This document shows positions 4,334 through 62,381 of a stretch of 64,000 nt of DNA, in pieces (the stretch's first letter is position 1; every line of letters begins with the position of its first letter). The DNA lies in contig JAHBMJ010000366.1 of NCBI GenBank assembly GCA_018398765.1, positions 1 through 64,000 of the forward strand, read 5' to 3'. The DNA is from Chromera velia (Eukaryota). The notes under the pieces are model-generated. The model did no database searches. It was not told the DNA's origin and saw only the letters and a program-made list of their open reading frames with translations. The position numbers were made by a program, and so were the translations under genes.

Positions 4334-4377
<44 letters not shown>

Positions 4378-28656: not shown

Positions 28657-29958
28657 CTATTTGTCCCTCACTGGCATGCCAGTCCGCCGTGCGCTGCTTG
28701 CAGTGAAGTTGGGGATTGATGGAGCCATTGGATCCGATGCAACGACGGCCTGGTTTTGTACCAGCTGTGTGTGCGATTGAGTGCTGGCGGACGAAGCGCA
28801 GATGATGGTGGAGAGGCCATGGGTAGGGCTCTCGATATCGGACTTGAAGTAGGCTTGACTGTACCCGCACTCTACTTGAGGCAGCATACCTGTGCATGCA
28901 ATGAAGCGCTTGAGCTCGTCCTTCTGCCATAGTTGAACGTCCTTTCCATGTTTGGGGCGAGTGGACTTAGGTTGAAGCTTCTCCCTTTCAGGGGTGCTAA
29001 TGACAGACGCAAATCCACCTCGCTGAATGACCGACGCGTGGAATGCCAACAGATGCTCAGGCTCGATCACGTGCTCGATCACATCGGCGCTAATCACCAC
29101 TGCTCCCTGAACAATTGAATCCGGGATTGACGGCATGGCATCGAAGTCATTGATGTTCCACTCAATCGCTGCGAAACCCGCCAACGATTCGACGTTCTGG
29201 TTACGGTACCGCTCTGTGGCTTGGATTGCCTCTCTGGCAGCTTCTAAGTTGTCCTTGAAGTCTATGATGAAAAGGTTGAACCCCTTCCCGAACAGTGTGG
29301 CTGCCTTCCGCCCGTTTCCGCAGCCTAGATCTATGATCCACCCATTTGCTCCCTCCGCAAGCGAGTCGGCAAGCAGAGCGGCTGTATTGTAGATGTTGTA
29401 CTGGTGAATCTTCTCCGATCGTTTCTTTGTATCAAGGTCGTACTTCGGCTTCACGTTGCGCATGTAGTACTCTGGCAGGAACTTCCTTTCCTTCTCTTCA
29501 GCCGACACAGTCGCACAGAAGGAATCGAGGGGAGCGGCAGCTCCGCCCAACTGTGGCGCCTGTGCTGCTAGTGGTACCATCTGCGCGGTCTCCATGTTGC
29601 TCGGGCTGTGCAGTTCCGAGGCTGCGCTGGTTGAGGGCTCTGTGTTTGTGGGTGACAGGGGAGCAGCTGATTGTACAATGGGCGCTGCGATGCTTTTCCT
29701 GCGTGCGACATCCATTGCATCCGACCGAACTGTTCCTTCAAGCCTCGGCACAAGGTCTTCCCTTTGGAGAGGGACTGTCGACCGCTCTGGAGGGGGAAAC
29801 GGCGCAGTAACAATGCCTGCAGCAGTCATCCGAGATTCGTCAGACTCCGACGAATGAGGGCGAGAGGCCATTTGCATAAAGGTCAGAAAGCAGATAGTGG
29901 CCATGGCAACCAGGGCAAAAAGCTGCCACGAGAAGGGCCGGCGGAGGACGACTGCCAT
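28657..29958 (-). CDS. Intronless type II membrane class I SAM-dependent methyltransferase
   Basis: ATG 29958 (MAVVLRRPFSWQLFALVAMATICFLTFMQM, a TM anchor), P/S/A-rich stem, motif I IIDLGCGNG, ADVIEHVIEP, ISTPER; stop at 28657. Confidence 0.85.
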   Translation of the reverse strand: MAVVLRRPFSWQLFALVAMATICFLTFMQMASRPHSSESDESRMTAAGIVTAPFPPPERSTVPLQREDLVPRLEGTVRSDAMDVARRKSIAAPIVQSAAPLSPTNTEPSTSAASELHSPSNMETAQMVPLAAQAPQLGGAAAPLDSFCATVSAEEKERKFLPEYYMRNVKPKYDLDTKKRSEKIHQYNIYNTAALLADSLAEGANGWIIDLGCGNGRKAATLFGKGFNLFIIDFKDNLEAAREAIQATERYRNQNVESLAGFAAIEWNINDFDAMPSIPDSIVQGAVVISADVIEHVIEPEHLLAFHASVIQRGGFASVISTPEREKLQPKSTRPKHGKDVQLWQKDELKRFIACTGMLPQVECGYSQAYFKSDIESPTHGLSTIICASSASTQSHTQLVQNQAVVASDPMAPSIPNFTASSARRTGMPVRDK

Positions 29959-30673
29959 GTCGGTGATAGAGGTAAATTTCGGACTTTTCAATCAGACTCG
30001 CAGTAACTGTTGCCTATATGTGTTGCATGGGCCTCTTCGTTCAAAACATCAACCGTAAGAACTCACGTGTGAGATTGAGGCACGATTGACCCGTTTCAGC
30101 GACTACTTGCGCTACAAATAATCGGTTTGGTGCACACAACAGCACGAGAATCAATGTGAGGAGCTGTTCTATATATATTACGGGATACACGAGGCGACAG
30201 ATATATAGCAATACATATATATAGGTCAGTCATTTTCCTTTCTCGGCATGCATGCATGCATGGGGTTTTTGAGTTTGTCCAAATGCATGGGTGCATATTG
30301 GGGGAGACGCATGCGTGATCGCCGTGATCGACTCGCGATCTCTCTCATTTTTTTTTTTTTTTGCATTGTGTGGGGTCCATGCCTATACAGGCCGCCTGCA
30401 GTATATATACATATACACCTCTATGAAAGTCAAATCCACTGAGTGGATCCAACATTGAAGAGCACGCGGACAGGAAAGATCTGGCAGAGCCACAAGGCGG
30501 GAGACAGAACCATTCAATCCACTCGTCGAACAACTGCTGTTCATCGACGTGTTAATTGTCGGCATTGATCTGTACTGTCGTCCATTGATGTATATATATA
30601 TACTAGCTGCCGCGTATAATTGCGTTGACTTAATATTGATTCGACGTCCAACCCTGCTTTTGAGAGATCGCAC

Positions 30674-33368: not shown

Positions 33369-34652
33369 TTAAAAAAACTCCACTGCATCCTTCTCTAAGG
33401 GCGTAAAGTCGCGGCCTTTGTCTCGGCACGGCTCTGTCGCGTACTCAATTTGCTCCTTCTTCTTCCCCCCCGCCGCCCTCCCTCGTGGGGACTCTGTTCC
33501 ATTATGATACAGTCGCTCTAGCTGTGCGCAGGTGGCGGCTTCCCAATGCATGGGTGTTCATCATCTGATCGTCAGTGGGATGGTGCACTGCCGCGCCGCC
33601 CTGGCCGTCTTTGGCTTTCGAGAAGAGAAGGCTCGAATTCTTCGGCATAGTGTTCGCAAAGTACGCACGGGAGATTGTTTCCATGGATCCCCTGCATTCA
33701 TTCAGAAAGGCAGAAAAGAAACGATGCATGAGTAAAAACCAATGATTGAGAAGTTAACACGCAGGGAGGAGCTCTCAATGACCGATGGCCGGACCCTCAT
33801 GCATGCAGAATTGAGGGGGACTCAGGGTATACTCTACTCTCAGTGGGGGTCTAGATTCTGTCTGAGGAGAGGGGAGAACGACACGTACACAGGCAGGGAG
33901 AGCAAACAGGGCAGAAACTGAAACACAGACAGAGTAAAACGAAACCAGGGCAATAAAGAGATTGAAGGATTGGAAACAAGAAAGGAAGACAGAGAAGGCC
34001 CATCAGTCAATTTGCACCTGTGAACATGTAAGACTTGGAACGCTCATTCATACTTGCCACGGTCGTATGTGAGAAAGAGAGCCTGGAAGACGAAGGAGGA
34101 AGAGCACGACGATCGAGCTAAGTGGGGAGGAGGGGAAGGAGCATCTTTGAGGAAACCATTTCAAGGAATTGAGTTTGCAGGGGCTCCGTCAGGGAGAGAC
34201 GATGCACGCATGCATGCGTATTCAAAAGAGTGTGTGTGCCGTAAGGCACGTGCAGACCTCACTCTGCCTGTTTGGTATACCCTGCTTTTACTTTGGTTTT
34301 TGCATCTTCACTATCGATGGGTATATCAAGCAGGTGCCTGCCAGTCGAATAGATTTACGAATATCCATATAAGTATATGCACATATCTTTATGCATGACT
34401 CTTCAAATGACGCCGACCCAGTAGGCCGACCCATGACGTACGTTGCGAATTTGGCCAAGAAGAGAGCGCCACTCTGGAGACAGCTCTGTTTCGTTCATGT
34501 CCTTCCACTTGAGCCTCTCGTTGTACGCAGTTTCGTTGTGCATCAGCTCAAGGATCATATCTTCAAACTTTCTCATGTCCCCTCCTGCATGCATCAGGCA
34601 TCACACACACTCACATACATACATACACATGTATTCGAATATTTTATGTGTA

Positions 34653-34691
<39 letters not shown>

Positions 34692-35737
34692 GTGAGTGAG
34701 TGAGTGTGTGTGTGTGTGTGTATGTATGTGTGTGTGTGAATTCCTTTCGGCAGAGTAGATCCTGAGAAAGAGGGCGTGGGAAGCGAAGGAGATCAGGAAG
34801 GAAGAAATGAGAGACAGAAATGATCGATCAACTAGGCAGCAGAACAAAAGAGAAAGAAGAAACGCCGTGCGGCCAGCGGCCTGCAGGGGCGGAGTGCCGG
34901 AGGGAGGACTGCTTAGATGGCAAGATCGATCGATCGATCGATCGATCAGGTTTGGAAAGCAAAAAAATTCAGGTGAGAATTTCTTTGTTTTTGCAACGTT
35001 TCACCTATCTATCTGCTTAATTGTCTGTTTTGGTCCCGCCATCTTCAGTCCATTTCCGTCAGTCTATTTCTTTCTCATTCCTCTCCGTCTCCGTCTATCT
35101 GTCCTCCCGTCTATCTGTCGGGTGTCTATTGAATTTCTCACCCGCATCCAGTGTAAAATCGAGGGCAGCATCCGGACGTGGAAGAAATTCTCGAATGTTC
35201 GCGGGGCCGTTTGTGAGCGGTAGGCATCTGGTGAGTGGATTGTTTTCGTCGTTCGTTTGTGACATTCAGGATGCAGGAGGGAGATAGGTTCCATGCATGC
35301 ATGTGTCTCCGCATAAACAAGCAGTCGACAAATATAAATGCAAGCAATTAATTTCTGAAATTCGCAAGAACGAGACAGAGTGCTGCTGCGATACGCCCAT
35401 GCACGCGATCGATTCAGAAGAAATCCGACACATGCACGGTCCGGCCGTGTGCAATTTGCAGACATGGAGGCAGGGGAGGAAGCAAGAAGGGGGGAACAAG
35501 AAAGGAAAGAAAGCTGGAAGGAATGAAGGAACCACAAAAGGTAAGAAGGGGGGAGAGCTGAAGGGGGCCGGCAGGAATGGAGAAAGAAAGAACGGAAAAG
35601 CGGAAGGACGAAAGCATGGAAATCAATGAGCAAGCGAGCAAGAGAAGCAGAGAGGAAGAAAAAAAAAGGGAAGAAGGGAAGAAAGCGACTCGAGAGGAGA
35701 GGGGGCAGTTTGTGTGTCTTCCTGCAAGCACCAATTT

Positions 35738-35770
<33 letters not shown>

Positions 35771-37575
35771 CTTACTCAACTAAGGAAAGGTCGAGGAGGA
35801 AAAGAGAAGCCAAAAGTGTCAGAATTAATTGTTCTCTTGCACCCGCATGAGAAAAGGAGAGCGAGGTAGACATGCACTCAGGACTACTAAAAAAAAGTTT
35901 GTATCGACTGGCAGGCACACCGACCGACTCACCCTGCTTGGAGGCCTTCAAAAACTTTTTCACACACATAATCTTTCGTGATCGAATTTTCAAACACCAG
36001 ACAGAATTTGGATCTGCAAACAAACAAACAAAGAAACAAGCCTTCATGGGCAAACAGACAAACAAAGAAAGAAAGATAGAAAGAGGCAGGCAGATGTGCT
36101 GAGGTCACAGGATCAGGCTCGGCTCTCTCTATCCATGCCCTTTGGAGTCCAATTCTAACGATTCACAACCCGAAAAACGTATACAGCGAGAACGGTTGCA
36201 TGAGGCCACTTGTTTTCATGCACAGGTAATTTGTCAAACTCATTTAAACTCATGCAATTTATTTCTATCGATCGTTCTTTCTCTCTCGCGAATCGAATCT
36301 TATTTAGAGTGCACGAAGAAAAATGATATGCAGGGAGCAGGTGGGAGAATGAGAGAGGATCAATGTTAACTAGGGACCGTGAGAAATTTATTCTTGCACA
36401 AAGATACATACACAGTGTCGCCAGAATAACAAACAAAAGGAACGGATCGAGCATACACTGATCAGCCGCAGCGGCGCTCGAAGCTAGCCAGACTTTGTGG
36501 ATGCAAGTGAGACTCTGCCTCTAATCTTAGTGCGTGCAGCTAAACGTTTGTGCGTGTACCATGCAATGGATAGCATCCATCCCGCCCTGCTCATATGAGG
36601 CGAACTCGAACTCACAGCAGCCCCCCGAAGAGAATTTGCATCCATAGCATGGCGGCATGCAGTCAGGCAAGGGGATTTCAGCACAAGGAACAAACAGACC
36701 CTTCTCCCCCTTCCTCTCTCTGCCAGGCAAGGGGGTTTCAGCTCAGTTAAGGAACAAACAGATCCTGCTGCTAAATTCTTCCTCTCTCTGCCTCCCTCCG
36801 CTCTCTCTGTATCACTCACTCACTCACTCACTCACTCACTCACCCACTCGCTCCTTTATTCACTGACCGCCGAAAAGTGGCGATTTTGTCCACCTTCCTG
36901 CCATTTTTGGGACTTCGATCTCTGACGTACTCCTCCGAATTATGAAGGCACCTGCGCAGTTTTCCAAAAGAATGAATGAGCATGCATGAACGTTGTGCCT
37001 CTCATTTTTCAACACACAGGACTATGAACAAAAACAAACAGTGTTCCACACAAAATCACCACCCAGACGCCCATCCGATGTCAAAAATCTAAATTCCGCA
37101 TTTGCCAGCCAGACATCTAGAGCAAGAAGGGCCATGCCTTCGTATGTCATGGTTTTCGTTCGCTCATTTCGTCCTTCCGTTCTGCCCTTCCCCAGCCCCT
37201 TCTCTCACATTTTCGACCCTTGAATGTCCTTTTTTCGTCGATCTTTTCCCCGGTCCCATTTTTTACACGTGCATTGGATCTTCCCCATGTTCGCCCGTTT
37301 CTCGCAACAATCAGCTGTCGCTCTTTTTGCATGCATTTAGACAGACAGGCAGACAGACAGACAGACAGACAGACAGATCGAAGTCAAGCGAGGAAGGGAG
37401 GATGATGCATCTGGGCGATTGATCATGTATCTATCCATCTTTCTGTCTGTCTGTCTCACTGACTGCATGATCAACCGACTTACGCTCCAACGGCATCCAC
37501 TTGAACTCTCTTGTTCTCGATCATTTGCAGCTTCCTCGCGCGATCAATTCGCCGGTTGGTTCATGCACACACATA

Positions 37576-37617
<42 letters not shown>

Positions 37618-40600
37618 CATCCAACCGTGTATCCCGGACAGACATGTTTTTCTGTTTTACGCGGAAATCAGTGCAGCGTAAGGCTTTGATTTGACTCCCC
37701 GTCCAACCTCCCTCCCCAACTTCCTGTAGGAGGGATGGCGTTGATTCTCTTGGCGAGCGGGATGGACTATCGATCGATCGATCGATCGCACAATGTTATG
37801 CAATCAGCCGGCCTGTTTGAAGAAAGACAAACAAAGAAAATGCATCGTGGCATCCTGAGAAAAGAAAGCTCTTGAGCAGAACAGCTGAAGCAGTGAGAGA
37901 GAAAGAAAGCCAGAAAGAAAAGAGACGGTCCGGGATCTAGAAGACGATCGATCGAACATGGAAAGCCTCCCTCGCGTGGGTGTGCGGCAAGATGATGAGG
38001 AGGCACTATTTTGCAGTTCGGTTGATTGATGTTTTCTTTTCTTGTTTTCCGTTTCTCCTTTCTCCCTCCTGCCTCCCCTTTTTCTCTCTGTCTGTCTGTC
38101 TGTCTGTCTGCAAGTCTTTTTGTCCCGCCGTTGGCTTCCTTCCAAACTCTCATGCATGCATGGGGGCACCCACCTTCACGTAGGTTTCGCGCTTGCTTGG
38201 AGTGTCACAGTTGCCGTTGAGGAACACGACGGCGTTTCTTTTTTCGCTGAAGGGCAGAATGGGGTCCTGCAGAACGACCAGAAGGTCAAACAAACAGGCA
38301 GGCAGGCAGGCAGGCAGGCAAGAGTGGAAACATATCGATCTGCAAAAGTACCCAGAATGCTCACGAATGCATCGACACATACTATCACATGCAGACCCTG
38401 GCTGCAGCTGGACTCACTCGAGCAGGCAGTCGATCGTTCAATCATAATTAAAAGAAAAGAAACTGTCACTGAGCTTATATTGCAGAAACCCTAAGCAGGC
38501 GAGAAGGGGTTGGTGAGAAGGGCTAGGGACACAGGTATTGATAGTGAAGCACAAAGCGCCCACTCTCGCCCTCTCTCTCTCTCTCTCTCACAGTCTGTTG
38601 CACACCTTGGAGAGAGGACGGAACGACGAGAGAGGACAGAAGGGCGGAGGAATCAGTGAGGGCTACAGAAAAGGAGACAAGGTAAAAGATGGGGGGTGGA
38701 AAGAGAGAGACAAAGAATCGAATACGAAGGCAAACAAACAGTTGATCAGACAGAAAGTCAGACAGTCAGGCAGAAAAAAAGCAAGATCAACAAATGGATA
38801 GACACACATCCAGGCAGCTCCAAAGGAATGCAAAAATGCAAACATGGGGACATATGCAAAAACCAAGAAAGGTGGGGGGTACAGACGGCCACAGTCACAA
38901 CATCATCGATCATTCTGTACATATGTTTGTATTTGCATATGTATATAGATGTATGCGGCACTGGCGCCCCCAACCATGCACAGTTTGCCCTCAGTATTTC
39001 TTTCATCAATCGATGCACACACAGGCGACCACACCCGCATGTTCTCATCGATACCATCGTGTTGGATCGATCGCTCGAAAGGAAAGAAAGAAAGACTGCA
39101 TGCATATGCGCATGCATGCATGACTAAGCCCTTCGATCTACACAACTCACGTAGACCCTCTCGACCATCTTTGTCGTCAAACACGGCATCCACTTCTGCA
39201 GGCAGGCAGACAGGCAGACAGGCAGGAAGACAGAATTCATCGACGTATATAATATCCCTTCGATGACTTGTTGATCCTTTCGGTCCATAAGGAAGACAGG
39301 AAACCTCGATATCCGCGTGCGCAAACATGCAAGATAGGTTTCTTTTCCATATGCACACATAAAAATCTTGAGTCTGTGCTTGAGAGTCGACAATTCGAAA
39401 TGTGAGAAGATGCACAGAAAACAAATGCATCATCCATGAACGTACAAACGGCAACTCACGCGCACAGGCAAACAAAATTCTCTCTCTACACGCATGCATG
39501 CATGCATGATCGTCTTCCCAGATCCCTCCCTGACTCCTAATGGATCGATCGATCGATCTGCATCAGCACCCAGAAGCACCCTTTTCTTTCTTTTCCTTTC
39601 CTCTCCTTCCCTTAATGACTTTGCGTCCACAGAGACAACGTACACATTTATGCGATACCAAAATGGATCTCTGTTTCATTCCATACCACCCCGACACCGA
39701 GCCAGACCGACCGACCGTACTCTCCTTGAGGTACGTGGACGACATGTCAAATCTGCAGGGAGGAGGCATGCCATCAGTATACAAGGGGAAAGGGAACAAA
39801 TAGAGGAGGCAAACCTTCACAACGAAATTAATTCAAGTGTATGGAAGGAAGCATCCAAATGTTGATATCATTCCAAACCAACACATACAACGTCATGCGG
39901 ATGTGCTTCACTACATGACAGACCATCAGAAAAGCTGAACAAATGACTGTGGGCGGAGGTGACAGACCGACAAACAGGCAGATAGGCAGGCAGGCAGGCA
40001 GGCAGGCAGACAAACAGACAAAGAGACAGACAGCCAAACAGACAAAAAAGGGCGGACAAACAGACAGACAGATAGACAAACTGGCAAACAAACAGATAAA
40101 AAGACAATTACAGAACAGACACTCATGCCTGCATGACCTCAATGACCGACAGGCGCAAAAAATCCGGATTTCTGAAAGCCGGTACGCGAACTGCCGACTC
40201 GATCCCGGTGAGAGCCGTCATCTGCCAAGGGAATGTCTTCTGGAAGATTGGCCTCAATTCCTCCGAAGATCCTTTCAACCCGACAAACCCATGCCACATC
40301 AGGACCTCAGCATTTTGGTTGTTCTTGTACTTGGGATGTGTCCTAGAATAAACTTCGCATGGAACCCGGCAGCCCTGAAACGGTCCGTCCGGGTACCTCA
40401 AATGCGACCTTGACATAAACTGGACGGTCACAGTTTTGTTACTTATTACAGGGGTGACCGAAGAAGGCTCTGGTGACACGTCAGGGGTGATTGCGCCTTT
40501 CGATGAGGTCTCATCAGTCAGTGCAGCCTCTTTCGTAATGTTACGTGCACCCGCCGTTCCTCCGAAAGGCCGGTCTTCTCTTTGAGGCGAAATACCAGCA

Positions 40601-41555
40601 GAGGGATGACCCACTCCTTCTTCTTTGGGGGCAGCAGAAGGCGGGGACGTCTGCAAATTCTCCCCCCCCCCGGTCGTTGCAACTAGCTCTGGTTCCGTTT
40701 TTTCGGAGGCGCGGTCACCAGCCAAAAAGACGGCCCCTGGACCGGGCATCGCACCCGTTTTCGCTTCTCCCTGTGGCCGAAGTGATTTTGCTTCATTCCC
40801 CCCATGACTCAAACCAGCACCCCCTCCATCTCCCTCCTGTTGAGTCTGCAGCAGCTCACTCTTCGACGCCGACTGCTGCACGCCGACTTTCGTCAGTCCA
40901 GCAGTCTGGAGTGAGTTGTTGCCGTCTGCTGAACTGCTGTTCGCGTCCATTGAGGAGGAGGGGGCTTCTGCGGTCCTGGGCTGGAGGAGACCCGACGCCG
41001 CCCTCTCCCCCTCAGCCTCGTCTTCTCCTCCCGAGTCGGGCAGTCGTGCTCCGTCCGTCTTCTCCTCTTTCAAGGAAGCAGGGAACAAAGAAGGAAAAAT
41101 ACACACATTTACATACACTTCAGGCAGGAAAACACCGTCCGTCTCGCTGCGCATGCAAGGCGGAACGCGTACTCGCTCAAACTCAGTACCGCTTGCCTTT
41201 CTATATATGTATACGTGCATCCGTGCATTTCACAGAGTGTCGATATCATTACCCTGGACGGCAGCAATGGAGCCGACGTACCTCTTTTCGCTTCTTCGAG
41301 CTCACATACGACCTTCAGCCAGCACTCCGCGCCTTCAGGCTCACACTCTTCCTGAACAATCCGGTGAGTGCCCTCGCAGTGACGCAATGGAGAAGGAAGA
41401 GTTCCCTCTGGACGGAAACACACGTCTTTTGCACTGGGAATCGATTTCTCTTCCCCCAAAACGAGAAATTTGCGGACTTGCACGAACTGTCGCCAGTACA
41501 TGACAGAAAGGAGAACCAAGATGCAGGCGGCGCCAATGACGAAGCAGCGCGTCAT
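33369..41555 (-). CDS. GT10 alpha-1,3/4-fucosyltransferase-like type II membrane protein, copy 2
   Basis: Exons: 41555-~41478 (TM MTRCFVIGAACILVLLSVMYW), ~41065-40151, 39752-39716, 39195-39151, 38266-38174, 37530-37484, 36951-36868, 36013-35933, 35227-35142, 34584-34442, probably 33861-33795 and 33538-33369. Motifs VVFLNGNCDTPSKRETYVK, VDAVGACLHN, SKFCLVFENSITKDYVCEKVFEGLQAGCLPL..GPANIREFLP, LMHNETAYNERLKWK. Confidence 0.88.
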
Positions 41556-43372: not shown

Positions 43373-43412
<40 letters not shown>

Positions 43413-43990
43413 GCTCACTCTCTCTCTCTCTCTCACACACACACGCACAATCCCACGTGCATGCCGGCATGCAGGGAGCGTGATCCCCGGCAACGCGACG
43501 GAAAGCATCAAGACGATCATGGAACGGTCAGCTGGCATTTCTTCTTCCTCTTTCGATCAAGAGAACGTTCAGCTTTTCTTTTTTTTCGTTCCCCTCCTTT
43601 CCTTTCCTTTCCTCTTTCAAGGAAACGTACACGCTTGCTTTCTCTTCCTCTGTCTCTGTCTCTCACATGCCAGAAAGAAGCACAGCATCCCTTCACTCAC
43701 GTCTGCGTGCCTGGTCATCTCCTGACTCTCTCTCGCAGAGACTCCCATATCAGCCTGCCTGATCCACCCATGTACCCTTCATTTCCTCCCCCCCCCCTCA
43801 TTTGAGAGAGAGAGAGAGAGCCCTTCCACCAATTCCTATTCGCACATCCCCCTAGCTCTCTCCCGAGCCCACTACATAGTGCACAGTACCCATACAGCCC
43901 CCCCTCCGGCATTCATCGGTCTTCGCATTCTGTTTGAACGAAATCTCCGCTGAGTGCGCACATTTTTGTTTCTGTCTGTCAGTGTGTGTG

Positions 43991-44025
<35 letters not shown>

Positions 44026-49774: not shown

Positions 49775-50968
49775 ATGACCGACGTAGACGGGGTCTGGTT
49801 GATCGGGTGTGGGAAACATGCGATCCACTATGGCAAAATCTTGGGGCATCTGGGGAGAAGCTTTCTGGTCATTGGGCGTGGAGAGAACTCAGCCAATGAA
49901 TTCCTGAAGAAGTTCGAAGAGGCATGCCCAGACGTGAAGTCTCTGCCTGAAGTCAAATTGGGCGGACTCCAGCAGTTTCTCTCAACGAAGCCACCGATAT
50001 GCGGAAAGGCGATCCTTTGCCTGCCTGTCGAAAACCTGGCCTCCGCAACCTATCAACTGATCCGGTACGGTGTGAAAGACATTTTGGTGGAGAAACCCCT
50101 CGGGAAGAACAGCTCTGAGCTGGACCGACTGGTGAAGGTTTGTGAAGCGGAGGATCACAGGCCGCGGGTCTTTGTCGCGTACAACCGCCGTTTCTACGCA
50201 TCCGTCACTCAAGCAAAGGCTCTGATAGAGAAGGAAGGAATCCTCTCGGCAAAGCTGGACTTCAGCGAGAGGACAGACCAACAGGCGTTGAGAGTTCCTT
50301 ATCTTTTGGTTGGTCGGTTCCTGCAGAGAGCACAAAATTGTGTCCGTTTTCGTCATCTTGTGATATGCTTGCATCTATTCTTTTGGTAATTTCCCGGTCT
50401 GTTCCTTTCCCCTTCAAACTAACACTTGTAATTTATGCAGGGAGAAGTGCACAAGTAGTTTTGCCCTGCTCTTCTATGCAGATGGGCAACAGCTCACACA
50501 TGCTGGATGTCCTTTTTTTCCTCGCCGGCATGCCCGTGGAGCTGCACCCCAGCCACTCGCATAGCGGGGACCTCGATTTCTTCCCTGGGCCAAGCGTGTT
50601 TGTCGGTCACGGGAAAACAGACAAAGACGTGAGCTTCTCGTACCACGCAAACTGGAACTCTGCTGGGCGGTGGGCTGTCGAGGTCATAACCCGAGAGAGA
50701 AAACTTATCCTCAGTCCCGTGGAGAAGCTGCAGGAGGTGGGCAAGATAGATAGACCGTCTACGCTCGCTCTCATGATCTGCCTTCTAGTGCGTCCCTCTT
50801 CCTGCCACCCTGCATTCCTCTTTGCCAGACTCGCCGTCCACCCCACCTTTCTATGTCTGTCTCCCTGCTTTCCTGCCTGCCTGCTTCCGTGCCAGAGAGG
50901 CGAAGGCATGCGTGCCACCTCCGGGCCGTTAGTAAATTGCCTTGAGACTGCGCTCTCTTGTCCTGTTT

Positions 50969-51005
<37 letters not shown>

Positions 51006-51006
51006 C

Positions 51007-51042
<36 letters not shown>

Positions 51043-52972
51043 TATGTGCGTGTGTATGTGCGTGTGTGTGTGTGTGTGAGAGAGTGCAGATGCCGAAAGG
51101 AACGTTCAATCTCAGCGAGGTGGACCCGGGCGAGTTTGCAGGCGCGTACAAGAGAGACCAGGTCTTCAAACCGGGTCTCTTCGATCTCACGGAGGCCTTT
51201 TTGAAGTTGAAGGAGGGGGACTTGCCGCCTCCCTCTCTGCCTTCGGTTGAAGACCAGCTGGAGCTGGTTCGGTACTACGAGCGGATTGAGGGTCAGAGGA
51301 GCGACAGTCAGGTGTGGGTGGTCGGCTGTGGAAACATCGGTATGAGACATCTGCAGGGGATAGCAAAATTCAAGGGCGCGCCCTTCACCTTGAAAGTGGT
51401 GGAGAAAAGCGATGAAGCCCTGCAGAAGGCATCCAATGCCTTTCATGATGAGGCAAAGAAGGGGAGCGTGGATCACATCTTGGTCCCCTTCACCGACTGT
51501 GCCTCCCTTGTCGGGCAGCAGCCTGTCGATGCAAACGTGATTTTGATCGCAACAACAGCAGACGCAAGGTTTCAAGTCCTAAAAGAACTTTTCTCGGCCG
51601 AGGTGGGGGACCCTTCATCGTTCATGCCGACGAGGATCCTCATTCTTGAAAAGGTGAGCTGGGGGGGGAGGGAGGGAGGGAAAGTTTGCAAGACAGAGAG
51701 GGGACGAGAAGCCACGCAGACGGGGAGAGGCGGAAGGAAGGTATGAAGGACGTCCTCTTTGTGTGTTTAGATTGGGACGGAGAGCTAATTTGAGGAACTA
51801 CAGAGAAAAGACATGCAAAGTGTGAGAGGAAATAGAGGAGAAGAGGAAGCGCGTGCGAGACGGTGAGAAGAGTGAGGAGAAGGAAAGAAAAAAAGTCGAG
51901 AGGCGAAGAATGCAAGAAGAAAGAGCAAAACGGGGCAGGCAGATCAAGTGGAGGAGAAAAAAGAGACAGACAGGTGAGTAAGTTTAGCATGCAAGGAAGA
52001 GAAAGAGTGCGAGGGTGAAGAGAAAGGAAAGCTTTCGGGAAAAGAAAGGAACGTAAAAAGAATAAAAAATGGACACAAAAAAAAATAGAGAGGTTGAAAT
52101 GAGGACATCTTCCCTCCCTGTTTCTTTCACAACTGCATGCAGCCTCTGTTCCAGAGAGAGAGGGACTACGACGAAGCCCCCCATCTGTTCTCGCGTCTCG
52201 GTCTGGACGTCTACGTCCACCTCCCCCACCGCATCCACCCCCATATCCTCCAGTTCAAAGACAAACTTGCTGCTGCTGCTGCACAGGTACGAGACGAGAC
52301 GAAACGAAAAATGAAAAGCCACTAGATGCATTCATTGGAGAAGAGAGAAACAAAGAACATGGATAGATCGTGAGAATAGACCGCTGCATGCTGCTTGGTG
52401 TATGGGCTGTATCAAAGAGTGAAGAGGCAAGATGACACGTGTGGAGGCGTAACTTTCTCTCTCAAAAGCGTTTGATTCCTGCTCGTTTGTCTGTCCGTGA
52501 CATGCAAGCTTTAGATGTATGCGATACCTCATGCTTCACTGCCCTCACGGTCGGGTCTCTTTCCTTTTTGTACCTCAAACCGTCTCAATCGATCCATCGA
52601 TCCTGAATGTCTTCAGAAGAGAAACATCGATCTGCATGGTGTTCGCTGCTTATTTCTCTTCTCTCTGTCTCTCTCTCTCTGTCTCTCTCTCTCTCTCTTT
52701 TTTGTTTTTAATGCATGCATGCATGCATGCGCCTGCCTGCCTACCTGGGTGCCTGCAGGAGCCTGTGCACATGAGGTATGGGGGTTTCCACTGGGGTCTG
52801 GGTTGCAATGGCATCCACGGTCTGGACCTGTTTTTGATGATGAACGGCGAGGTGGGGCGACCGGACGACCTCCAGTTTGACAACTCAATGGTCAGAATGA
52901 AGCTCAAAAGAAAGAAAGCGCATAGATCCATGCGTAGTAAGGCTTTGATTCAAGACGCAACGCAAGTATTGA

Positions 52973-53009
<37 letters not shown>

Positions 53010-55477
53010 CGATTGATTGATTGATTCTGCCTAGACCCGGCCGGCACATGGGACAATCAGGGAGGCAGGCAGGCAGGCAGGCAGGCAGACAGACGGACAG
53101 GCAGGAGGCCGCAGGGGCAGGCGCAAAGGATTGAGTGGGGACTTTGGGACAAGCAGACAAGCAAGTCAGGGAGACAGACCGGCACTGCTACTTCGATTAT
53201 GAGCCTCAGAGGGACTTTCTGTCTCTCTCTCTCTGTCTGTCTGCCTGTCTGTCTGTCTGTCTGTCTATTTGTCTATCGCGTTGCGTTCTTCCCTGAATTC
53301 AGGTCAGAGAGGTCCTGCCTGCCAAGCGAAAGGGAGCCTGTGAGTTTCTCGGGGAGCTCAAGGTGACGCACCCTAACGGTGCTGCGTTGACACTCGTCAG
53401 TGGGTGGGTGGGAGGTGAAGGGGATAGCCTGGTCTGGCCTGGTCTGGTGGGGCTGGCTGGCTGGGTGCATGGGCTGTGTGGGCGGATCTGACTCTTCCTT
53501 GGAATGAAGTGAAGGAAAGAAAGAAAGAAAGAAAGACAGACAGACAGACAGAAAGAAAGAAAGAAAGAGACAAGGAGAGAAAGAAAGAAAGGAAGAAAGG
53601 AAGAACGAAAAAATTGATTCAGCCCTTTGGGAAATGCTGTGGACTTTCGCTTGATCGAGTGAACAACTGACTAGAAAAAAAAGAAGATCACGCCCTCTGT
53701 GGCTTACTGATTCTGTATCCCCAAAAAGAGATGGACATACACGTGTCTGCAGTCGTTTCTGTCGTGCTCTTCTTGTATCAGTATCAACAGTGCTGGATTG
53801 TGTGCCTGCGCGTCTGAAACGAAAAAGCCGTTCCTTTCCTTTCCTTTGCGACCTTTATGCACGTAAACCGACCGTCTCCGAATTAACGATTGAATTGCAG
53901 CTTGCTGCTCTGAACCTTGCCGTCAATTGAATTGAATTGGCATATAACCGTGCAGTGTTGTGCTCCATACAGCTCTACATGATCTGATATATCGATCCCC
54001 CCACCTCTCTCTCTCTTCCCCCTTTGCCTCAGTGGAACGACGTACCACCTGAAGAGGGGAAGCATAACGCGCTCGAATACGAGCTCGATTCTGCATCCTG
54101 GAAGGGGGTCTTCAAGAACGGCAAGTAAGTAAGGAAGTCGGTCGGGAGGGAGGGAGGGAGGGAGGTGTTCCTTTAAAGGCCCTTGCTGGTGGATGACCTC
54201 CGATCGAGGCCCTTCTTGTCTCTCATTCCTGCAAAAACTCCTTCAGAATTCTGCATGTAACCCCTTCCTTTCTTCCTTCCTTCCTTTCTTCTTTCCTTCC
54301 TTTCTTCCTCCCTTCTGTCTTTCTTCCTTCCTTTCTTCCTTCCTTGCTCCTTCATTTTCTGGTTGCTGCTTTGCTTCCTTTTTTTACTTCCCTCTTGCAG
54401 GTGGAAGGTTGGAAAAGACCTGAACAACCCCGAGCGTGAAGAAACACTGGGACACCCATACGTAAGTCGCATTTTTGTTCTTGTTCACGCTTTGCTCCTC
54501 CGAACGACGTCACGGCCTTTTCCTTGTCCCCTCCCTGTTTCTTCTGCTCCCTTCCCTTACCAGTGAACCCTAAATTTAAATTCACAACAAATCGCCTTCC
54601 CTCTCTCCCCTCCTACCCCCTTGCCCGAGGAGCCCGTGAGAGAGAGAGAGAGAGAAACAGACAGACAGACAGACAGACAGACAGATTGACAGATAAACAG
54701 AGAAATATGCAGATTCGAAATCCCCCCCCCAGCTTCCTCATGAGAAGGTCGCTTCCCTCCCTCCCTCCCTCGACCCAACCTCTTCATGGCCATCTCATGA
54801 ATTGTTCACAAAACGCATGCAGCAACGCGAATGGGTGCATGGTCTCTCCGACTGACTTTTTCTTTCTTGATTGTGCGCAGGTCTCCGAGTCAAGCCTCAT
54901 TTGGTTCTCGCAGTGCCTCAGAGACAAGAGGTGGGTGGGTGCATTGGCCGACAGTCTGCCTCTCGATCCACACACAAAAAAATGATTCGCATGCGTTGCT
55001 TTCATGAACCCTTTTGCTTGTGTTTGTTCGGTCCTCTCGACAAGTCCTCGATCTGTGAGGAAATTCATCTTGCTGCCCGTGAAGAAGTCTCTGCGGATCT
55101 ACTGAATGCATTCAGATCCTCTCCTCACACTCCCAACACGCAAGCGTGTCCATCCACTCCACTTGATTTCCTGTGTTGTCTACGAAGACCGCCGGAAGGA
55201 AGAATTTGATGTTGCATGGACTGTACGCAGCCATCAAACCGACGTGGTTGAGTGATTGTCGCACGCGCTTGCAGGTGCGCCCTCCCGACCTACATTTAAT
55301 TTCATAAAAAAGTAAATGCACGTACGCGCTTGCAGGTGTGCCCTCCCGACCTACGCACAGGTGGCGCCAGCGGCTGTCGGCCTTCACCGTTCGCTTCTAC
55401 AAGTCTTTAGAAAGAGCCCGAATCCAGAAGCAATCTCCGGGCCTGACCTCGAACCCGACTGTCTGCCGATCACTTAA
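49775..55477 (+). CDS. Tandem fusion of two Gfo/Idh/MocA-family NAD(P)-dependent oxidoreductases
   Basis: Domain 1: WLIGCGKHA, ILVEKPLG, VAYNRRFY, GNSSHMLD, ANWNSAGRWAVE, FKPGL. Domain 2: WVVGCGNIGMRHLQG, IATTADARF, LILEK|PLFQ, WGLGCNGIHGLDLF, AKRKGACEFLG, C-terminal CLPIT*. Exons ~49775-50284, 50482-50736, 51090-51653, 52143-52286, 52759-52890, 53303-53395, 54033-54124, 54401-54461, 54881-54930, 55336-55477; one or two micro-exons unresolved. Confidence 0.85.
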
Positions 55478-56584: not shown

Positions 56585-58086
56585 TCACGAATAAGTCGGG
56601 CATCGCACGAGATATGGATGTGGTGCAAGGAAGAACGATTCAAGATTTGCTGCCACGACAGCCTCAGCAAAATCAGGGTCTATACATGAGTACTCCTTCG
56701 CGAGAGCCTCTGAAAGATACTTGGGGAACTCTGATCGAGAAAAAAGTGCCTTGGTCGTTTCGTCTCTTTGGCATGGTGACTGGCCTGCATCAGTTCCCTG
56801 CCAGTCCTTTCCGAGCTTTCTGTATAACTGTGCGTACTGCGAATCCGGTGACCCTTTCAAGTCATAATTCCCAGCCCCGAAATCCCTTTTGAGAGCTTTG
56901 AAATGGAACCACGCGTTCACGAACGTTCTCCCCACCTTCCCTTGTCCAGACAGTTTCTCACAGCGGCCCCCTTTGATGTAGACGGTCTTCTGGCTGATGC
57001 GGTGGAGAATGCAATCACCATTACCATTGGTCGGCCTCGTTGCCCACACACACGGGACGCCCTTTCCCCCCGGATCTCTTATCAGGTTGACTCCTTTGAA
57101 GCTCAGCGGTCTGAAATTGCTCTCTGGCAAATCAAGCAGTGTCTCCCGAGCATTCTGCATTGCTTCTCCAAAGACTATCGGGTTGAGAATCGTGTCGCCA
57201 TCCAACTTAATGGCATGCGAGAAGCGTGCACGACTCATGCAGAAGTTGTAGTAGTTCACCAGAGAGTGCGGGCTTGTTGGCGGTAGACTCAAGAACTCTT
57301 TTGTGCCTTGACCATAAACCTTAGCCATGTACTCGAAGACCTTTAGTTTTTTTTTGTCCTTCTCTTCAGGGGATGCCAAGAGTTCTCGTAGCCTGTCCTC
57401 TGTGCAGTCCGAGCAGTCGTTGAAGCAGACGACCACTTCATCGAGAAAATCAATCGCAGACATCACGGCACCGCTGATAAATTCACATTCATTCCTCACG
57501 CGAAAGTAACCGGTGATGCCCCTCTGTCGATCGGATTCTTTCAACATCGACGTCTTAAATTCGAAAGTCTGGACCCGCACAATGGGGTCGGTACTATTGG
57601 CGACATTAGCGGAATGTTGGAAAGGGAGAGCGGCTGCTCAGCCACGCTGCTCCCTGCTGGAAGCCCCACCGCTATGCTCTCTGTGCCCGTCCCCGTGTCT
57701 ACAGAAAGCAAACTAGTGAGGCTGCTGTTGATGCTGCTGGCACTGGTGGGGGCGACGGTGCTGCTGTTGGAGGCCGTGGCAGTGGTGCTACTGCTACTGC
57801 TATCGCTACTGCGCCGAATGCTACTGGTGGTGCTGCTGGCGTTATTGATTCTGACAGCAGGTTCCAGAAACGCCTCCCAAGGTTCCGACCCAGGGGGGGC
57901 AGCCTTGTGTCGGGCCACAAGCTCAGGGTCAACAAATGAGGACTCCTGCTTGCTCAATTGCGAGGGATCGAGCGTGCCTTTATCGTTCTCCACAAGCACG
58001 GACGAAAACCGCACAGTGGAGTGGAAGATGAAGAGGGAACAAAGGATGACAAATAGGAAGGGAAGCATGACAGACCGCCGCCTCAT
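56585..58086 (-). CDS. Type II membrane GT-A fold glycosyltransferase resembling the CgtA (beta-1,4-GalNAc-transferase) / GT2-like group; reading frame broken near 57610
   Basis: 5' ORF 58086-57541: TM MLPFLFVILCSLFIF plus Ser/Thr stem. 3' ORF 57580-56585: GYFRVRNE, VCFNDCSDCTE, SLVNYYNF, AIKLDGD (DxD). The two overlap in frames one base apart. Confidence 0.75.
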
Positions 58087-59040: not shown

Positions 59041-62000
59041 ATGATTAGACTGAATCGCTGCGGTTGCCGGTACTTGATCTGCATCGCGCTTTTCGTGGCC
59101 GTAGTCAACACATTAGTGGGTTTGCAGCTGTTGAACGGCACTGAAATTCCATTTTCAATCGTCCCCTACCAGACTGAGTGCAACTGCACTGCCGCAGTTG
59201 CAGAAGCAGTTGCAGCCGTTACAGCTGAAGCGGCAAGAGAGAGGGAAGAAATCTTGGCTCGTGTTGCAATGCAGGCACAGGCAGCAGCCGAGTCGACGCC
59301 GCCGGAGCCACCGATCCCAAACAAAGCAGCGGGGACGGGGAAGAAGACGCAGCGGCAGCCTGCTGCACAGAAAAAAAAGAAAGTAGTGCTAAATGAGGAG
59401 TTACTGCCAACAGGCCTAAGTATTTGGGAGGTTCCCACAATCTCACGGAGAATAGCCGATTTGCCCTGGTCGAATCTGACCGCTTTCCGTGCGGCTTTCC
59501 CCAACGATACAAGTAGCTCTACGATCAAGCGGGTTCGCGGTACGCACGACTACGGGGCCGAGGAGCAACTTCGCAGCTTCTTCATCCAGCACGGCCTCGC
59601 GAACTTGCGATTTCCGGGTGTGAACGCCACGCAGCGGGTGGAATGGGACCGCCCTCCGTTGTTAGGGCTCCTGGAAGGGGAATTGAAGGGTCCTGTGCTG
59701 GACCACGTGGCGGCGCCCAAAAACGGTCGCCTTCCCTTTTCGATCCCTTCTAAACTTTATGATCAGTGGAAAGGACTGGTGAAGGGCCTGCTGGAGAAGA
59801 GACCCAGATTCCATCTTGACTCCACAGTGCCGAAGGGATCTGAGTATCCCACCTGTGCTCTCGTGGCCAGTGGTCCGGATATGCTCAATGCGAAGTTTGG
59901 CGCAGAGATTGATGCTCATGATGTGATTTTTCGGATGAACTGCGCTCCTGTCAACGGCTTTGAGTCTCATGTAAGTTTGAGAAGGAAAGAACATTCTAAT
60001 CAATCTGTCAGTGACGCCTTTGAAGCTCAACGAGTGAGTGGGAGAGTCAGTCAGTCAATCCGTGAGTTAGTCATCAGTCAGTCAATTTGTGTATGTATTC
60101 ACGGACAGCGATTCTGCTCTTGGTGTTGTTCGTTTTTGAATCGTCGGCTTCCTTCCACATTCTCTCTCAATCGTCCTTTGAAAAGGTCGGTCTCCGTGCC
60201 TGCCTGCAGGTTGGCTCTCGCACCACCTTCCGCACAACATATCCGGAAAGTACGAGGCAACTGAAAAGGCACTGTGAGAGTGACTCGACCGATCTTAAGA
60301 ATGAAACAAAAACTGACATATGGTGTGAGGGTATCGTCGACCTTCCGTCAGAAGGGGGCACAGTCATTGGGATGGTATTTCACCCACAAAACCTGGAGTA
60401 TTACCACTGTGGGGCTCTGGGATGTCCAAAAAGTTCCAAATACAAATTCGCAACAGAGTACGTGCCCTACAGCGCGGACACGTTTACAGTCCTGAATCCA
60501 GAAGTAATCTGGATCGCACAGAGACTAGTCCCACGAAACGAGACGCAGGGATGGCCTTCTGCGGGGGGGATTCTGGTGGCGCTGACAGGATTGGTAGGTC
60601 ACTCAGCGCTTTCAACGGCCTCTCTCACTCTGTCTTCTTTCTTTATGTGTGCCTCTTTATTTTCATGTCACTTTCTTTTTGCATTCATGATTACCAGAAC
60701 CCTAGTCTATGCTCGTGACATCGTCTCTCTAGATTTTCTTCATCGCTTATCTCTCTCTGTCTAGATGCTCGTGGCAGTTGTTGTCTCTCCTCTTTTTTCC
60801 CCTTTTGACTTTTGTGTTTCTGTGCGTCTGTACCGACCTCTCTTTGTCTTCTCCTTTCCTTTTTCGCTCCCTCTCCCCCCCACCCCCCCNCCCCCCTCTC
60901 TCTCTCCCTCTCTCTCCCTCTCTGTTTCTCTCTCTGCCTCCCTGTGCCGCTCTGCATCTCTCCACGTCCGCGTCTGAGTCGGTCTTCTCATGCGATTTCT
61001 TTGAGCTTGTTTTCTCTCCATCTCTCCATCCGTCGACCCATCCATCCATCAATCCATCCATCCATCCGTCCGACTCTGTCTACCCGAATTTCCTTCTGGC
61101 TCTCTCCCCCTCTCCCTTTTCTTCTTCTGCTTGCGCACATTTTTGAGGGTCCAGCTGACGCCTGTTTTTTTTCGCTGGACTTGTGAATGAATTGGGTGTT
61201 TGCGTCGACTGATTTCTCTCCCTCCCTCCCTCCTTCTTTCTGCATGTACATACGTGTTACAGCGGTTTCACATTTATGATGCACTTTTCTTTTGTATCAG
61301 ATCGGAAAGAACAAAAACAAAAGTTCAAACGTTTACTGTGCCAAAGTTGTCGGATGACCAGTCTCTGAAGATTTATTGAATAAAAAAGGAGAAAAACGTG
61401 AATTGCTGTGTATGCATCCTTGATCTTTGTTTTTATTTGTGATATATGCAGGTGTGTCGGTCGACAACCCTCTATGGGTTTCCCAGCTCATATGCTGAGT
61501 ACTCACTTAAAGGACATGAAGCAATCAAAGAGTCTGACTTTGTTCGAAGGTGGCACTACTATGATTGTGGCGTGGCCACATAGCACAACAGTCTCTTTGG
61601 AGTCAAAAGTTTACGGTCTTCAATGACCCCCCCCCCCCNNNNNNNNNNNNNNNNNNNNNNNNNCCCCCCAATTTAATAACACTTTAGTTTAACAAAGTGT
61701 CATGATATGCTGTCATTAAATGAAAGTCATCTTAATGAATTGTTTAATATGTATTGATATGTTATAATTCTAATAATCTGTGAACATGTGCTATATATAC
61801 TTAAATTTTGTGTCTACCGTTTCAAGTTGTAACCGTATGATGGTCTGTATGTTTCAAATAGTTTGATATAGAATAATTCAAAAATAAATACAAAAATTAA
61901 AAGGAAAAAAACTTGATATACTTAAAAAGCGATCTAAAGCTATTTCTAAGAAGGATAAAGAGGAAGACTGCCCACTGAGGCTCTGTTCAAATTTTTGATG

Positions 62001-62381
62001 AACGAAAGGCATAGTACGGTGGATGAGTTTCTGGGGAGGGTGGCGTTCAGAAGAAGAGTGTTCAAGGAAAGCCCAGGAAGGTACGCACCTGCCACCTGGA
62101 AACTCGTTATAGATGAAACAGTGTTGGCACCTAGGCACCGGCTAGAGAGAAAAAAAAAAGATCTCCCTGGATCGTCTACTTTTTTTTTTTTTGTCCAGTC
62201 AAACAACTGTTGTTCAACTATTGCACAAGTGTTGTTTATATATTGCACAACCGTTGTTATAAGTGTTGTTCAGGGTCAAAAAGTAAAAAAGAAAACAAAA
62301 AAAAAGATTTCCCGAGATCGTCTAATTTTTTTTTTCTCTCTAGCCGGCCGGCGCCTAGGTTGGCACAGAGATACGGAGTGA
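59041..62381 (+). CDS. GT29 sialyltransferase-like type II membrane protein
   Basis: TM YLICIALFVAVVNTLVGL. Exon 59041-59970 joined to 60210-60593 gives sialylmotif L (TCALVASGPDMLNAKFGAEIDAHDVIFRMNCAPVNGFESH|VGSRTT). Motif S spans PSAGGILVALTGL|VCRSTTLYGF (exon from 61452). Motif III HYYD at 61554-61565; motif VS HSTVDE at 62010-62027. Exact 3' end uncertain. Confidence 0.88.
61639..61663. other. Assembly gap (N run within a poly-C tract)
   Basis: Run of N flanked by C homopolymers; a single N also occurs at 60890. Confidence 0.95.

What the first reader, a model, noticed from the sequence alone, without database searches (positions are those of the whole stretch)
28657..62381. Eukaryotic gene cluster for sialic/nonulosonic acid synthesis and glycan decoration
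Seen: within ~34 kb lie neuC, a neuA-neuB fusion, a double oxidoreductase, a GT29 sialyltransferase, a CgtA-like GT, a GT10 fucosyltransferase and a membrane-anchored methyltransferase, with a second GT10 about 23 kb further left. The setting is spliceosomal and microsatellite-rich, so this is not bacterial contamination. Established: NeuC -> NeuB -> NeuA converts UDP-GlcNAc to CMP-Neu5Ac, and GT29 enzymes use it in the Golgi. Animal sialylation genes are dispersed, whereas neuBCA + cgtA + sialyltransferase cluster in the Campylobacter jejuni ganglioside-mimic LOS locus. Model apicomplexans are not known to make sialic acid. Inference: an operon-like eukaryotic cluster building a sialylated/fucosylated (sialyl-Lewis-, Sda- or ganglioside-like) surface glycan, possibly for host mimicry. 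No CMP-sugar transporter is visible in this window.
Basis: partly seen in the sequence, partly recalled or inferred. Interest (0 to 1): 0.95.

Follow-up and report, generated by a model that had tools for sequence, protein, structure and literature searches.

The report
Sialic-acid gene cluster in coral alga

Summary
The cluster is real. The window is Chromera velia, a photosynthetic chromerid, not an apicomplexan. Six adjacent genes alternate in strand: GT10, neuA-neuB fusion, neuC, a double Gfo/Idh/MocA oxidoreductase, a CgtA-like GT-A enzyme and GT29. A membrane-anchored methyltransferase lies one unrelated ORF away. RNA-type contigs splice neuA-neuB and the oxidoreductase, and a DNA contig bridges neuB-neuC-oxidoreductase without a mismatch.

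Corrections: it is not an operon (three head-to-head pairs); NeuC is animal-GNE/algal type, not Campylobacter type; the CgtA-like gene has a frame break and unknown donor; host mimicry is unsupported.

New here: (1) Picochlorum has the same neuA-neuB fusion next to neuC at three loci; (2) the two oxidoreductase halves match a tandem gene pair of prokaryotic nonulosonic-acid loci (67 of 80 loci have NeuA, B or C), two of them neuB-neuC-neuA-oxC-oxN operons; an acorn worm has the same fusion. The product is therefore likely a redox-remodelled (epimerised) Neu5Ac, not plain sialic acid. No sugar has been measured. The GT29 and neuC sequences were published separately (PMC5811610); I found no report of the cluster.

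The parts
28657..29958 (-). Class I SAM methyltransferase, 433 aa, one exon, N-terminal membrane anchor and stem; possible glycan O-methyltransferase, membership of the cluster uncertain
   Evidence: no close solved relative (best E 0.025)
33572..41555 (-). GT10 fucosyltransferase-family gene, 641 aa, 11 exons, type II membrane protein
   Evidence: model; PF00852 26.3 bits on motif exon; 124 of 227 columns identical to the left GT10; not checked against RNA
42267..46175 (+). NeuA-NeuB fusion (CMP-transferase + Neisseria-type synthase with SAF domain), 579 aa, 5 exons; Cvel_3341
   Evidence: one RNA-type contig spans the gene with GT-AG joints
47770..48906 (-). Hydrolysing UDP-GlcNAc 2-epimerase of GNE/algal type, 378 aa, one exon, no kinase domain
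   Evidence: held in MMETSP; RNA-type contigs with T-rich end at 47621
49775..55477 (+). Double Gfo/Idh/MocA oxidoreductase (OxN-OxC fusion), best model 688 aa, 10 exons; Cvel_3343 (official model shorter at the 3' end)
   Evidence: 5' exons spliced in RNA-type contigs; homologues in nonulosonic-acid loci
56585..58086 (-). CgtA-like GT-A glycosyltransferase with membrane anchor and Ser/Thr stem; frame break between 57544 and 57640; Cvel_3344
59041..61583 (+). GT29 sialyltransferase-family gene, 481 aa, 3 exons, type II membrane protein; sialylmotifs L, S, VS present, motif III degenerate
   Evidence: same sequence as the 'chromera' GT29 of PMC5811610; not checked against RNA
133..5758 (-). Second GT10 paralogue, running off the left end of the window; separated from the core by unrelated genes

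Best explanation
This is a real cluster of six adjacent Chromera velia genes, three of them seen here in RNA-type contigs, that likely makes a CMP-activated Neu5Ac-type sugar, likely changes its stereochemistry with the fused oxidoreductase pair, and likely transfers it to an algal surface glycan in the Golgi. Steps: (1) NeuC hydrolyses UDP-GlcNAc to ManNAc (family shown, activity inferred). (2) The NeuB half condenses ManNAc with PEP without a kinase step, as the Neisseria enzyme does (nearest solved relative shown, activity inferred). (3) The NeuA half adds CMP (family shown). (4) OxN and OxC, each with a GxGxxG motif, an EK(P) lysine and an HxxD motif, oxidise one hydroxyl of the sugar and reduce it from the other face, giving an epimer at C4, C7 or C8 (inferred from gene context; position unknown). 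(5) A transporter encoded elsewhere imports the CMP-sugar (assumed). (6) GT29 adds it to an acceptor that GT10 and the CgtA-like enzyme may build or decorate and the methyltransferase may methylate (inferred, weakest step). The neuA-neuB + neuC pair is a cassette shared with green algae and a giant virus. Its likely role is surface charge or defence against viruses and grazers.
For: Families and motifs. NeuB: N. meningitidis SiaC E 1.1e-114 against 6.7e-41 (6ncs) and 4.6e-40 (pseudaminic synthase). Splicing and linkage: 5 of 8 modelled introns in the laid stretch are listed as GT-AG joints in X3 and X4 and not in DNA run X2; X2 contig 45668-50960 has 0 differences. Coding differences in those runs: 12 synonymous, 12 non-synonymous, against about 25% synonymous expected, p 0.007. 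Oxidoreductase context: of 80 prokaryotic OxN loci, 74 hold OxC, 66 of these 74 directly upstream, and 67 of 80 hold NeuA, NeuB or NeuC within the DNA held; L184 and L185 read neuB-neuC-neuA-oxC-oxN with Neisseria-type NeuB, and no LegC-like aminotransferase in the DNA held. Control: of 80 loci picked by NeuC likeness, 0 hold OxN and 1 holds OxC, so the pair is an optional add-on. Precedent: Gfo/Idh/MocA ElaA is proposed to oxidise C8 of CMP-legionaminic acid (PMC13656337). Picochlorum BPE23: M9434_007200/007201, 004897/004896, 004887/004886. Trees: Chromera NeuC sits in a 40-row clade (SH-aLRT 99) with animal GNE, green algae and a giant virus and no named bacterium; Chromera and Picochlorum NeuB share an 8-row clade (87).
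Against: No sugar or enzyme activity has been measured. Most OxN/OxC loci are legionaminic-type (LegC-like in 47 of 80); only 5 of 80 have Neisseria-type NeuB. No characterised enzyme matches the OxN profile well (best PDB E 2.8e-10). A related family member, RgNanOx/YjhC, acts in sialic-acid scavenging (PMC7535918 abstract; YjhC E 2.4e-6). NeuB scores below the TIGR03569 cut-off (343.9 of 399.65, official model). The CgtA-like gene is broken in this assembly and was not checked against reads. One RNA-type contig (X4) has a 1-base insertion in neuA and one (X7, depth 3) a 1-base deletion in neuB, neither in the other runs. All 6 oxidoreductase coding differences but one are non-synonymous. GT29 enzymes in plants and prasinophytes are linked to Kdo (PMC13213038). 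The runs' RNA status is the tool's guess. No transporter is in the window.
Confidence: 0.6

Rival explanations
1. The cluster makes and transfers plain Neu5Ac; the oxidoreductase acts on another sugar, recycles sialic acid, or is a passenger.
For: NeuC, NeuB and NeuA alone suffice for CMP-Neu5Ac (established for Neisseria and E. coli K1, from knowledge). A family member works in scavenging.
Against: Its homologues are tied to biosynthetic nonulosonic-acid loci (67 of 80); both domains keep their motifs; the gene is head-to-head with neuC and spliced.
Confidence: 0.25
2. Host mimicry: the alga displays a sialyl-Lewis-, Sda- or ganglioside-like glycan to evade an animal host.
For: Chromera can enter coral larvae and host immunity is suppressed; it may be a parasite, commensal or bystander (PMC5864212 abstract). 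GT29, GT10 and a CgtA-like enzyme are the families that build such epitopes elsewhere.
Against: Cnidarians are reported to lack sialic-acid biosynthesis. The core pair is in free-living Picochlorum. CgtA membership not met; linkages unknown; an epimer would be a poor mimic.
Confidence: 0.06
3. The cluster is decaying or silent at the transferase end, so no nonulosonated glycan is made.
For: Frame break in the CgtA-like gene; degenerate GT29 motif III; cell-wall linkage table lists neutral sugars only (PMC9293442).
Against: Core genes are spliced and show an excess of synonymous differences; GT29 and GT10 models are open with canonical introns; that wall method is not designed for ulosonic acids (from knowledge).
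Confidence: 0.07
4. Bacterial contamination or a chimeric scaffold.
For: Several genes have mostly bacterial relatives; an assembly gap lies at 61639-61663; no single contig spans the laid stretch.
Against: Spliceosomal introns confirmed by joints; one DNA contig bridges three genes; the long DNA contigs over the exons have even depth of 28-34; membrane anchors and stems on the transferases.
Confidence: 0.02

Closest known systems
Bacterial neuBCA pathway (Neisseria meningitidis SiaA/B/C, E. coli K1)
   Same: Kinase-free route UDP-GlcNAc to ManNAc to Neu5Ac to CMP-Neu5Ac; NeuB nearest to SiaC.
   Different: Spliced eukaryotic genes on alternating strands; NeuA fused to NeuB; epimerase of GNE type; GT29 and not GT38/42/52; extra oxidoreductase.
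Prokaryotic neuB-neuC-neuA-oxC-oxN operons (L184 uncultured gammaproteobacterium; L185 Chryseomicrobium palamuruense)
   Same: The same five catalytic functions in a row.
   Different: Product uncharacterised there too; separate genes in C-then-N order, fused N-C in Chromera; followed by MptE-like/Maf proteins, not GT29.
Acinetobacter baumannii legionaminic-acid epimer modules (aciABCD, aciAECD, elaABC)
   Same: Redox add-on genes beside the cytidylyltransferase that turn a nonulosonic acid into its C7/C8 epimers (PMC5595891, PMC13656337); the order NeuA, SDR, OxC, OxN in several loci resembles aciA-B-C-D.
   Different: Diamino sugar substrate; identity of OxC/OxN with AciC/AciD could not be tested by sequence; no SDR partner in the Chromera cluster.
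Deuterostome sialylation pathway (GNE, NANS, NANP, CMAS, SLC35A1, GT29)
   Same: GNE-type epimerase domain (37-39% identical), GT29; fused oxidoreductase in the hemichordate Glandiceps talaboti (31% over 706 columns).
   Different: No ManNAc kinase, NANS or NANP step; genes clustered.
Campylobacter jejuni LOS ganglioside-mimic locus (cstII, neuB1, neuC1, neuA1, cgtA)
   Same: Synthesis genes linked to a sialyltransferase and a CgtA-related GT-A enzyme.
   Different: GT29 against GT42; GNE-type NeuC; only remote CgtA likeness; no operon; no vertebrate host.
Prasinophyte GT29 expansions and carbohydrate-gene-rich outlier chromosomes
   Same: Algal surface-glycan genes with a suggested antiviral role (PMC13213038).
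   Different: Bathycoccus GT29 genes are dispersed without clustering (PMC3491373) and are tied to Kdo-rich scales.

Membership tests
Hydrolysing UDP-GlcNAc 2-epimerase (NeuC/GNE domain) | TIGR03568 above cut-off; nearer hydrolysing than non-hydrolysing enzymes | tested here: met
   343.8 bits vs 235.9; wecB 73.3; PDB ranks
Bifunctional GNE | Fused ManNAc kinase domain | tested here: not met
   378-aa single exon, stop at 47770, RNA-type end at 47621
Neu5Ac synthase NeuB (Neisseria type) | NeuB + SAF domains, nearest characterised enzyme is a Neu5Ac synthase, KRPG arginine kept | tested here: met
Neu5Ac synthase NeuB (Neisseria type) | TIGR03569 curated cut-off | tested here: not met
   343.9 of 399.65 (official model); 8 of 8 fusions tested fall below it, so the cut-off does not discriminate here
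Neu5Ac synthase NeuB (Neisseria type) | ManNAc + PEP to Neu5Ac activity | not testable with these tools
   needs assay
CMP-nonulosonate synthetase NeuA | PF02348 with ARGGSK, QPTSP, ENGA, DID motifs | tested here: met
GT29 | Sialylmotifs L, S, VS and type II anchor | tested here: met
GT29 | Motif III before VS | tested here: inconclusive
   S-Y-A-E at that place; an HYYD lies after VS
GT10 | Fucosyltransferase motif (PF00852) and type II anchor | tested here: met
CgtA / GT82 GalNAc transferase | PF06306 match | tested here: not met
   no match for the Chromera protein; 7 of 11 alignment members match weakly, best E 2.3e-10 over 117 of 347 positions; Atlas features 0.97-0.98 to CgtA-bearing clusters
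CgtA / GT82 GalNAc transferase | GT-A fold with DxD | tested here: met
   model pLDDT 74, top folds GT-A enzymes at 11-15% identity; KLDGD with invariant K, D, D
CgtA / GT82 GalNAc transferase | Intact reading frame | tested here: inconclusive
   frame break; the official intron removes conserved profile positions 5-39 (208 vs 171 bits); no reads laid there
Campylobacter LOS ganglioside-mimic locus | GT42 sialyltransferase in a co-directional bacterial operon | tested here: not met
   GT29; alternating strands; introns
AciC/AciD epimerase pair | Sequence orthology to A. baumannii AciC and AciD | not tested
   sequences not obtainable; only gene order resembles aciABCD; their family is recalled, not read
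Eukaryotic biosynthetic gene cluster | Three or more adjacent non-homologous enzymes of one pathway | tested here: met
Eukaryotic biosynthetic gene cluster | Co-expression | not testable with these tools
   contig depth cannot rank genes
Eukaryotic biosynthetic gene cluster | Demonstrated product | not testable with these tools
   needs chemistry

The most novel reading that the evidence does not exclude
Chromera makes an undescribed epimer of sialic acid, and its cluster is a living example of the algal glycan cassette from which deuterostomes took GNE: the epimerase shares a clade with animal GNE, and an acorn worm keeps the same oxidoreductase fusion in the same domain order (reverse of the order in 66 of 74 prokaryotic pairs), so early-branching deuterostomes may also make such an epimer.
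Probability: 0.17. Interest if true: 0.92.

Novelty: new variant of a known kind. Interest (0 to 1): 0.7.

Why it matters
Whether protists really make sialic acids, and where animal GNE came from, are open questions (PMC5811610, PMC4729200). This locus supplies a complete, spliced, physically linked pathway in a culturable alga for which transfection has been reported (title of PMC12407925), and shows the core pair moving as a unit among algae and giant viruses. It also gives a simple test bed, without the diamino-sugar steps, for an uncharacterised and widespread oxidoreductase pair of nonulosonic-acid loci. If the product is an epimer, it would be a new eukaryotic sugar and might resist ordinary sialidases.

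Tried and rejected
Run search: no holder on record as RNA; RNA status is judged from joints. AciC/AciD test failed: no E. coli match, unnamed plasmid hits, paper not held. Chromera-Glandiceps common origin: grouped at 84 in the joined-domain tree, apart in single-domain trees, AU p 0.285 and 0.709: neither shown nor rejected; all trees were quick, LG+G4, and the Chromera branch is long. Single-sequence fold of the Glandiceps protein was useless (pLDDT 35.5). Methyltransferase: no viral relative, no close structure. Shared promoter motifs in the three divergent gaps: only TA and GCAT repeats. Earlier scan notes: none for this genome or these words; sequence look-alikes were bacterial loci that did not bear on this cluster. 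Which Chromera synthase PMC8208679 placed in its group III could not be told. Rejected readings: operon, apicomplexan parasite, Campylobacter-derived block, ORF 61959-62381 as part of GT29.


Full report
Organism and setting. The window has GC near 0.5 and microsatellite-rich introns. Three of its proteins match database entries labelled Chromera velia CCMP2878, Cvel_3341, Cvel_3343 and Cvel_3344. Chromera is a photosynthetic, coral-associated relative of apicomplexans.

Observation. I built spliced models by hand. Methyltransferase 28657-29958 (-), GT10 33572-41555 (-), neuA-neuB 42267-46175 (+), neuC 47770-48906 (-), oxidoreductase 49775-55477 (+) and GT29 59041-61583 (+) are open from ATG to stop. 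All 31 modelled introns, the left GT10 included, are canonical. The CgtA-like gene 56585-58086 (-) has its anchor and stem in one frame and its catalytic domain in another. The four transferase-type proteins and the left GT10 have an N-terminal hydrophobic segment of 2.05-2.4; the three synthesis proteins have none above 1.62. Under single-copy assumptions the adjacency is far beyond chance.

Expression and linkage. Eight runs of one organism hold the core stretch; five guessed to be RNA hold 0.27-0.45 of its words, and exons make up 0.445 of it. I laid 41800-53200 against one DNA run and three RNA-type runs. Five of the eight modelled introns in that stretch appear as GT-AG joints in X3 and X4 and not in X2; one joint corrected my donor site. 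One 2279-nt contig carries the whole neuA-neuB fusion. X7 shows a T-rich loose end behind neuC. A DNA contig covers 45668-50960 with no difference, bridging neuB, neuC and the oxidoreductase. X3 and X4 share differences from the window, which I read as a second strain; of 24 listed coding differences (one from X7; 3 further rows of the table were not shown) 12 are synonymous, p 0.007 against 25%, though 6 of 7 in the oxidoreductase change a residue. Single-base indels in one X4 and one X7 contig are not shared by other runs.

Architecture. The six core genes form three head-to-head pairs with gaps of 711-1594 bp. That is ordinary for Chromera: median gap 989 bp and an excess of head-to-head neighbours (PMC4501334 passages). 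So this is a cluster of separate transcripts, not an operon.

The synthesis enzymes. NeuB is nearest N. meningitidis Neu5Ac synthase (E 1.1e-114) and far from the pseudaminic synthase (4.6e-40). NeuC passes the hydrolysing-epimerase cut-off, and its nearest structure is human GNE. In a quick tree of 71 rows it lies in a 40-row clade (99) with animal GNE, Picochlorum, Mesostigma, unnamed proteins and a giant virus, and no named bacterium. This agrees with PMC5811610, whose supplement holds this very epimerase and GT29, from separate contigs, and proposes an alveolate source for deuterostome GNE.

A shared cassette. Picochlorum sp. BPE23 has a 582-aa NeuA-NeuB fusion (53% identical) and a NeuC (45%) with consecutive locus tags at three places. 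NeuB and NeuC trees show matching pairs of relatives; most of those relatives are unnamed, so their eukaryotic origin is assumed. A giant-virus contig has neuC and a neuA-neuB fusion one gene apart. NeuA-NeuB fusions also occur in bacteria, so the fusion alone is not diagnostic.

The oxidoreductase. Its N half has 632 relatives at E 0.001 or better among cluster representatives. With an alignment of 30 of them I fetched the best 80 of 507 prokaryotic loci. The C half matches a neighbouring gene in 74 of 80, directly upstream in 66; 67 of 80 hold NeuA, NeuB or NeuC. Most are legionaminic-type loci (LegB, LegC, nucleotidyltransferase and NeuD families named), 27 have a PtmA-like SDR and 20 a further Gfo/Idh/MocA gene that I call ElaA-like from gene order only. 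Five have a Neisseria-type NeuB, and L184 and L185 read neuB-neuC-neuA-oxC-oxN: the same five activities as the Chromera core. Of 80 loci picked by NeuC likeness none holds OxN and one holds OxC. In A. baumannii such add-on redox genes decide which epimer is made (PMC5595891 passages; PMC13656337 passages). I infer oxidation and inverted reduction of one hydroxyl; the position is unknown. The only other fused protein among the best 150 hits that I identified is from the hemichordate Glandiceps talaboti, in the same N-C order. Common origin is neither shown nor rejected.

The transferases. GT29 has motifs L, S and VS. GT10 has the fucosyltransferase motif. The CgtA-like domain has 10 relatives at 32-36% identity, folds as GT-A and resembles CgtA-bearing clusters by features, but its donor is unknown and its frame break unresolved. 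The methyltransferase has no close relative in the sources tried and is set apart by an unrelated ORF. No transporter was found in 137 other ORFs.

Host mimicry. Chromera may be a parasite, commensal or bystander of corals (PMC5864212 abstract), but cnidarians are reported not to synthesise sialic acid, and the core pair occurs in a free-living green alga. A role in surface charge or virus and grazer defence is more likely; this is inference, by analogy to prasinophyte carbohydrate genes (PMC13213038 passages). The published wall analysis lists neutral sugars only, with 1.7 mol% fucose (PMC9293442, first of two parts read).

What is in print. Read: PMC5811610 parts 1-5 of 7 and supplement passages; passages of PMC8208679, PMC4729200, PMC4501334, PMC5595891, PMC12053666, PMC13656337, PMC9676051, PMC13213038, PMC3491373; abstract of PMC5864212. 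Ten searches, one for the gene identifiers with no hit (81), showed no description of this cluster, of the Picochlorum pair or of a natural Neu5Ac epimer pathway; I judged most from listings. Subscription papers, bioRxiv supplements and the supplements of PMC4729200 and PMC4501334 were not seen and may bear on novelty. Earlier scan notes added nothing.

Verdict. Observation confirmed; interpretation partly supported. A eukaryotic nonulosonic-acid gene cluster with a bacterial-type epimerising add-on: a new variant of a known kind. Cluster real and devoted to a nonulosonic-acid glycan: about 0.9. Product a remodelled and not plain Neu5Ac: about 0.6. Interest 0.7.

Noticed in passing
window 57544-57640: The official model Cvel_3344 bridges the frame break with a 131-nt intron (57474-57604) that deletes the first conserved strand of the GT-A domain; probably an assembly indel hidden by the annotation.
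   Followed up: partly
window 43159-43526 and 52891-55477: Official models Cvel_3341 and Cvel_3343 differ from my models: the first lacks exon 43475-43526, which RNA-type joints support; the second ends early and scores lower on a homologue profile (135 vs 164 bits).
   Followed up: yes
PMC5811610 supplement: The two 'Chromera' CMAS and the one NANS/NeuB sequence listed there are not this window's NeuA-NeuB; they may come from co-cultured bacteria (inference). Only 'Chromera3' epimerase and the GT29 match this window.
   Followed up: partly
window 47770-48906: Opposite the human GNE segment VRVMRKK the Chromera epimerase has IQTLHEIQK; the arginines there are recalled as the CMP-Neu5Ac feedback site, so feedback control may be absent.
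   Followed up: no
window about 7000-25500 (+): Multi-exon gene or genes with Sushi repeats and a segment that looks LamG-like by eye; extracellular proteins between the two GT10 genes.
   Followed up: no
window about 30600-32102 (+): ORF pieces without any family match, head-to-head with the methyltransferase, apparently with a frame change near a T-run; unrelated to glycans.
   Followed up: partly
window 6017-6297: Nested inverted repeats (28 nt at 93%, 25 nt at 96%) upstream of the left GT10; may be a small transposon remnant.
   Followed up: no
L081 9992-13726: Giant-virus contig (GVMAG) with neuC, an SDR and a neuA-neuB fusion among many glycan genes; its NeuC falls in the GNE/algal clade.
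   Followed up: partly
L096 335-4104: Metagenome contig with NeuB beside a NeuC-NeuA fusion, the architecture listed for Micromonas in PMC5811610; the same three activities, fused the other way.
   Followed up: partly
L001 8679-13072 and L002: Viral contigs with neuB, neuC, neuA and a short GT29 in a row.
   Followed up: no
L256 7959-8804; L255 7923-8897: CgtA-like relatives stand alone in a giant-virus contig and in a phage-like contig.
   Followed up: no
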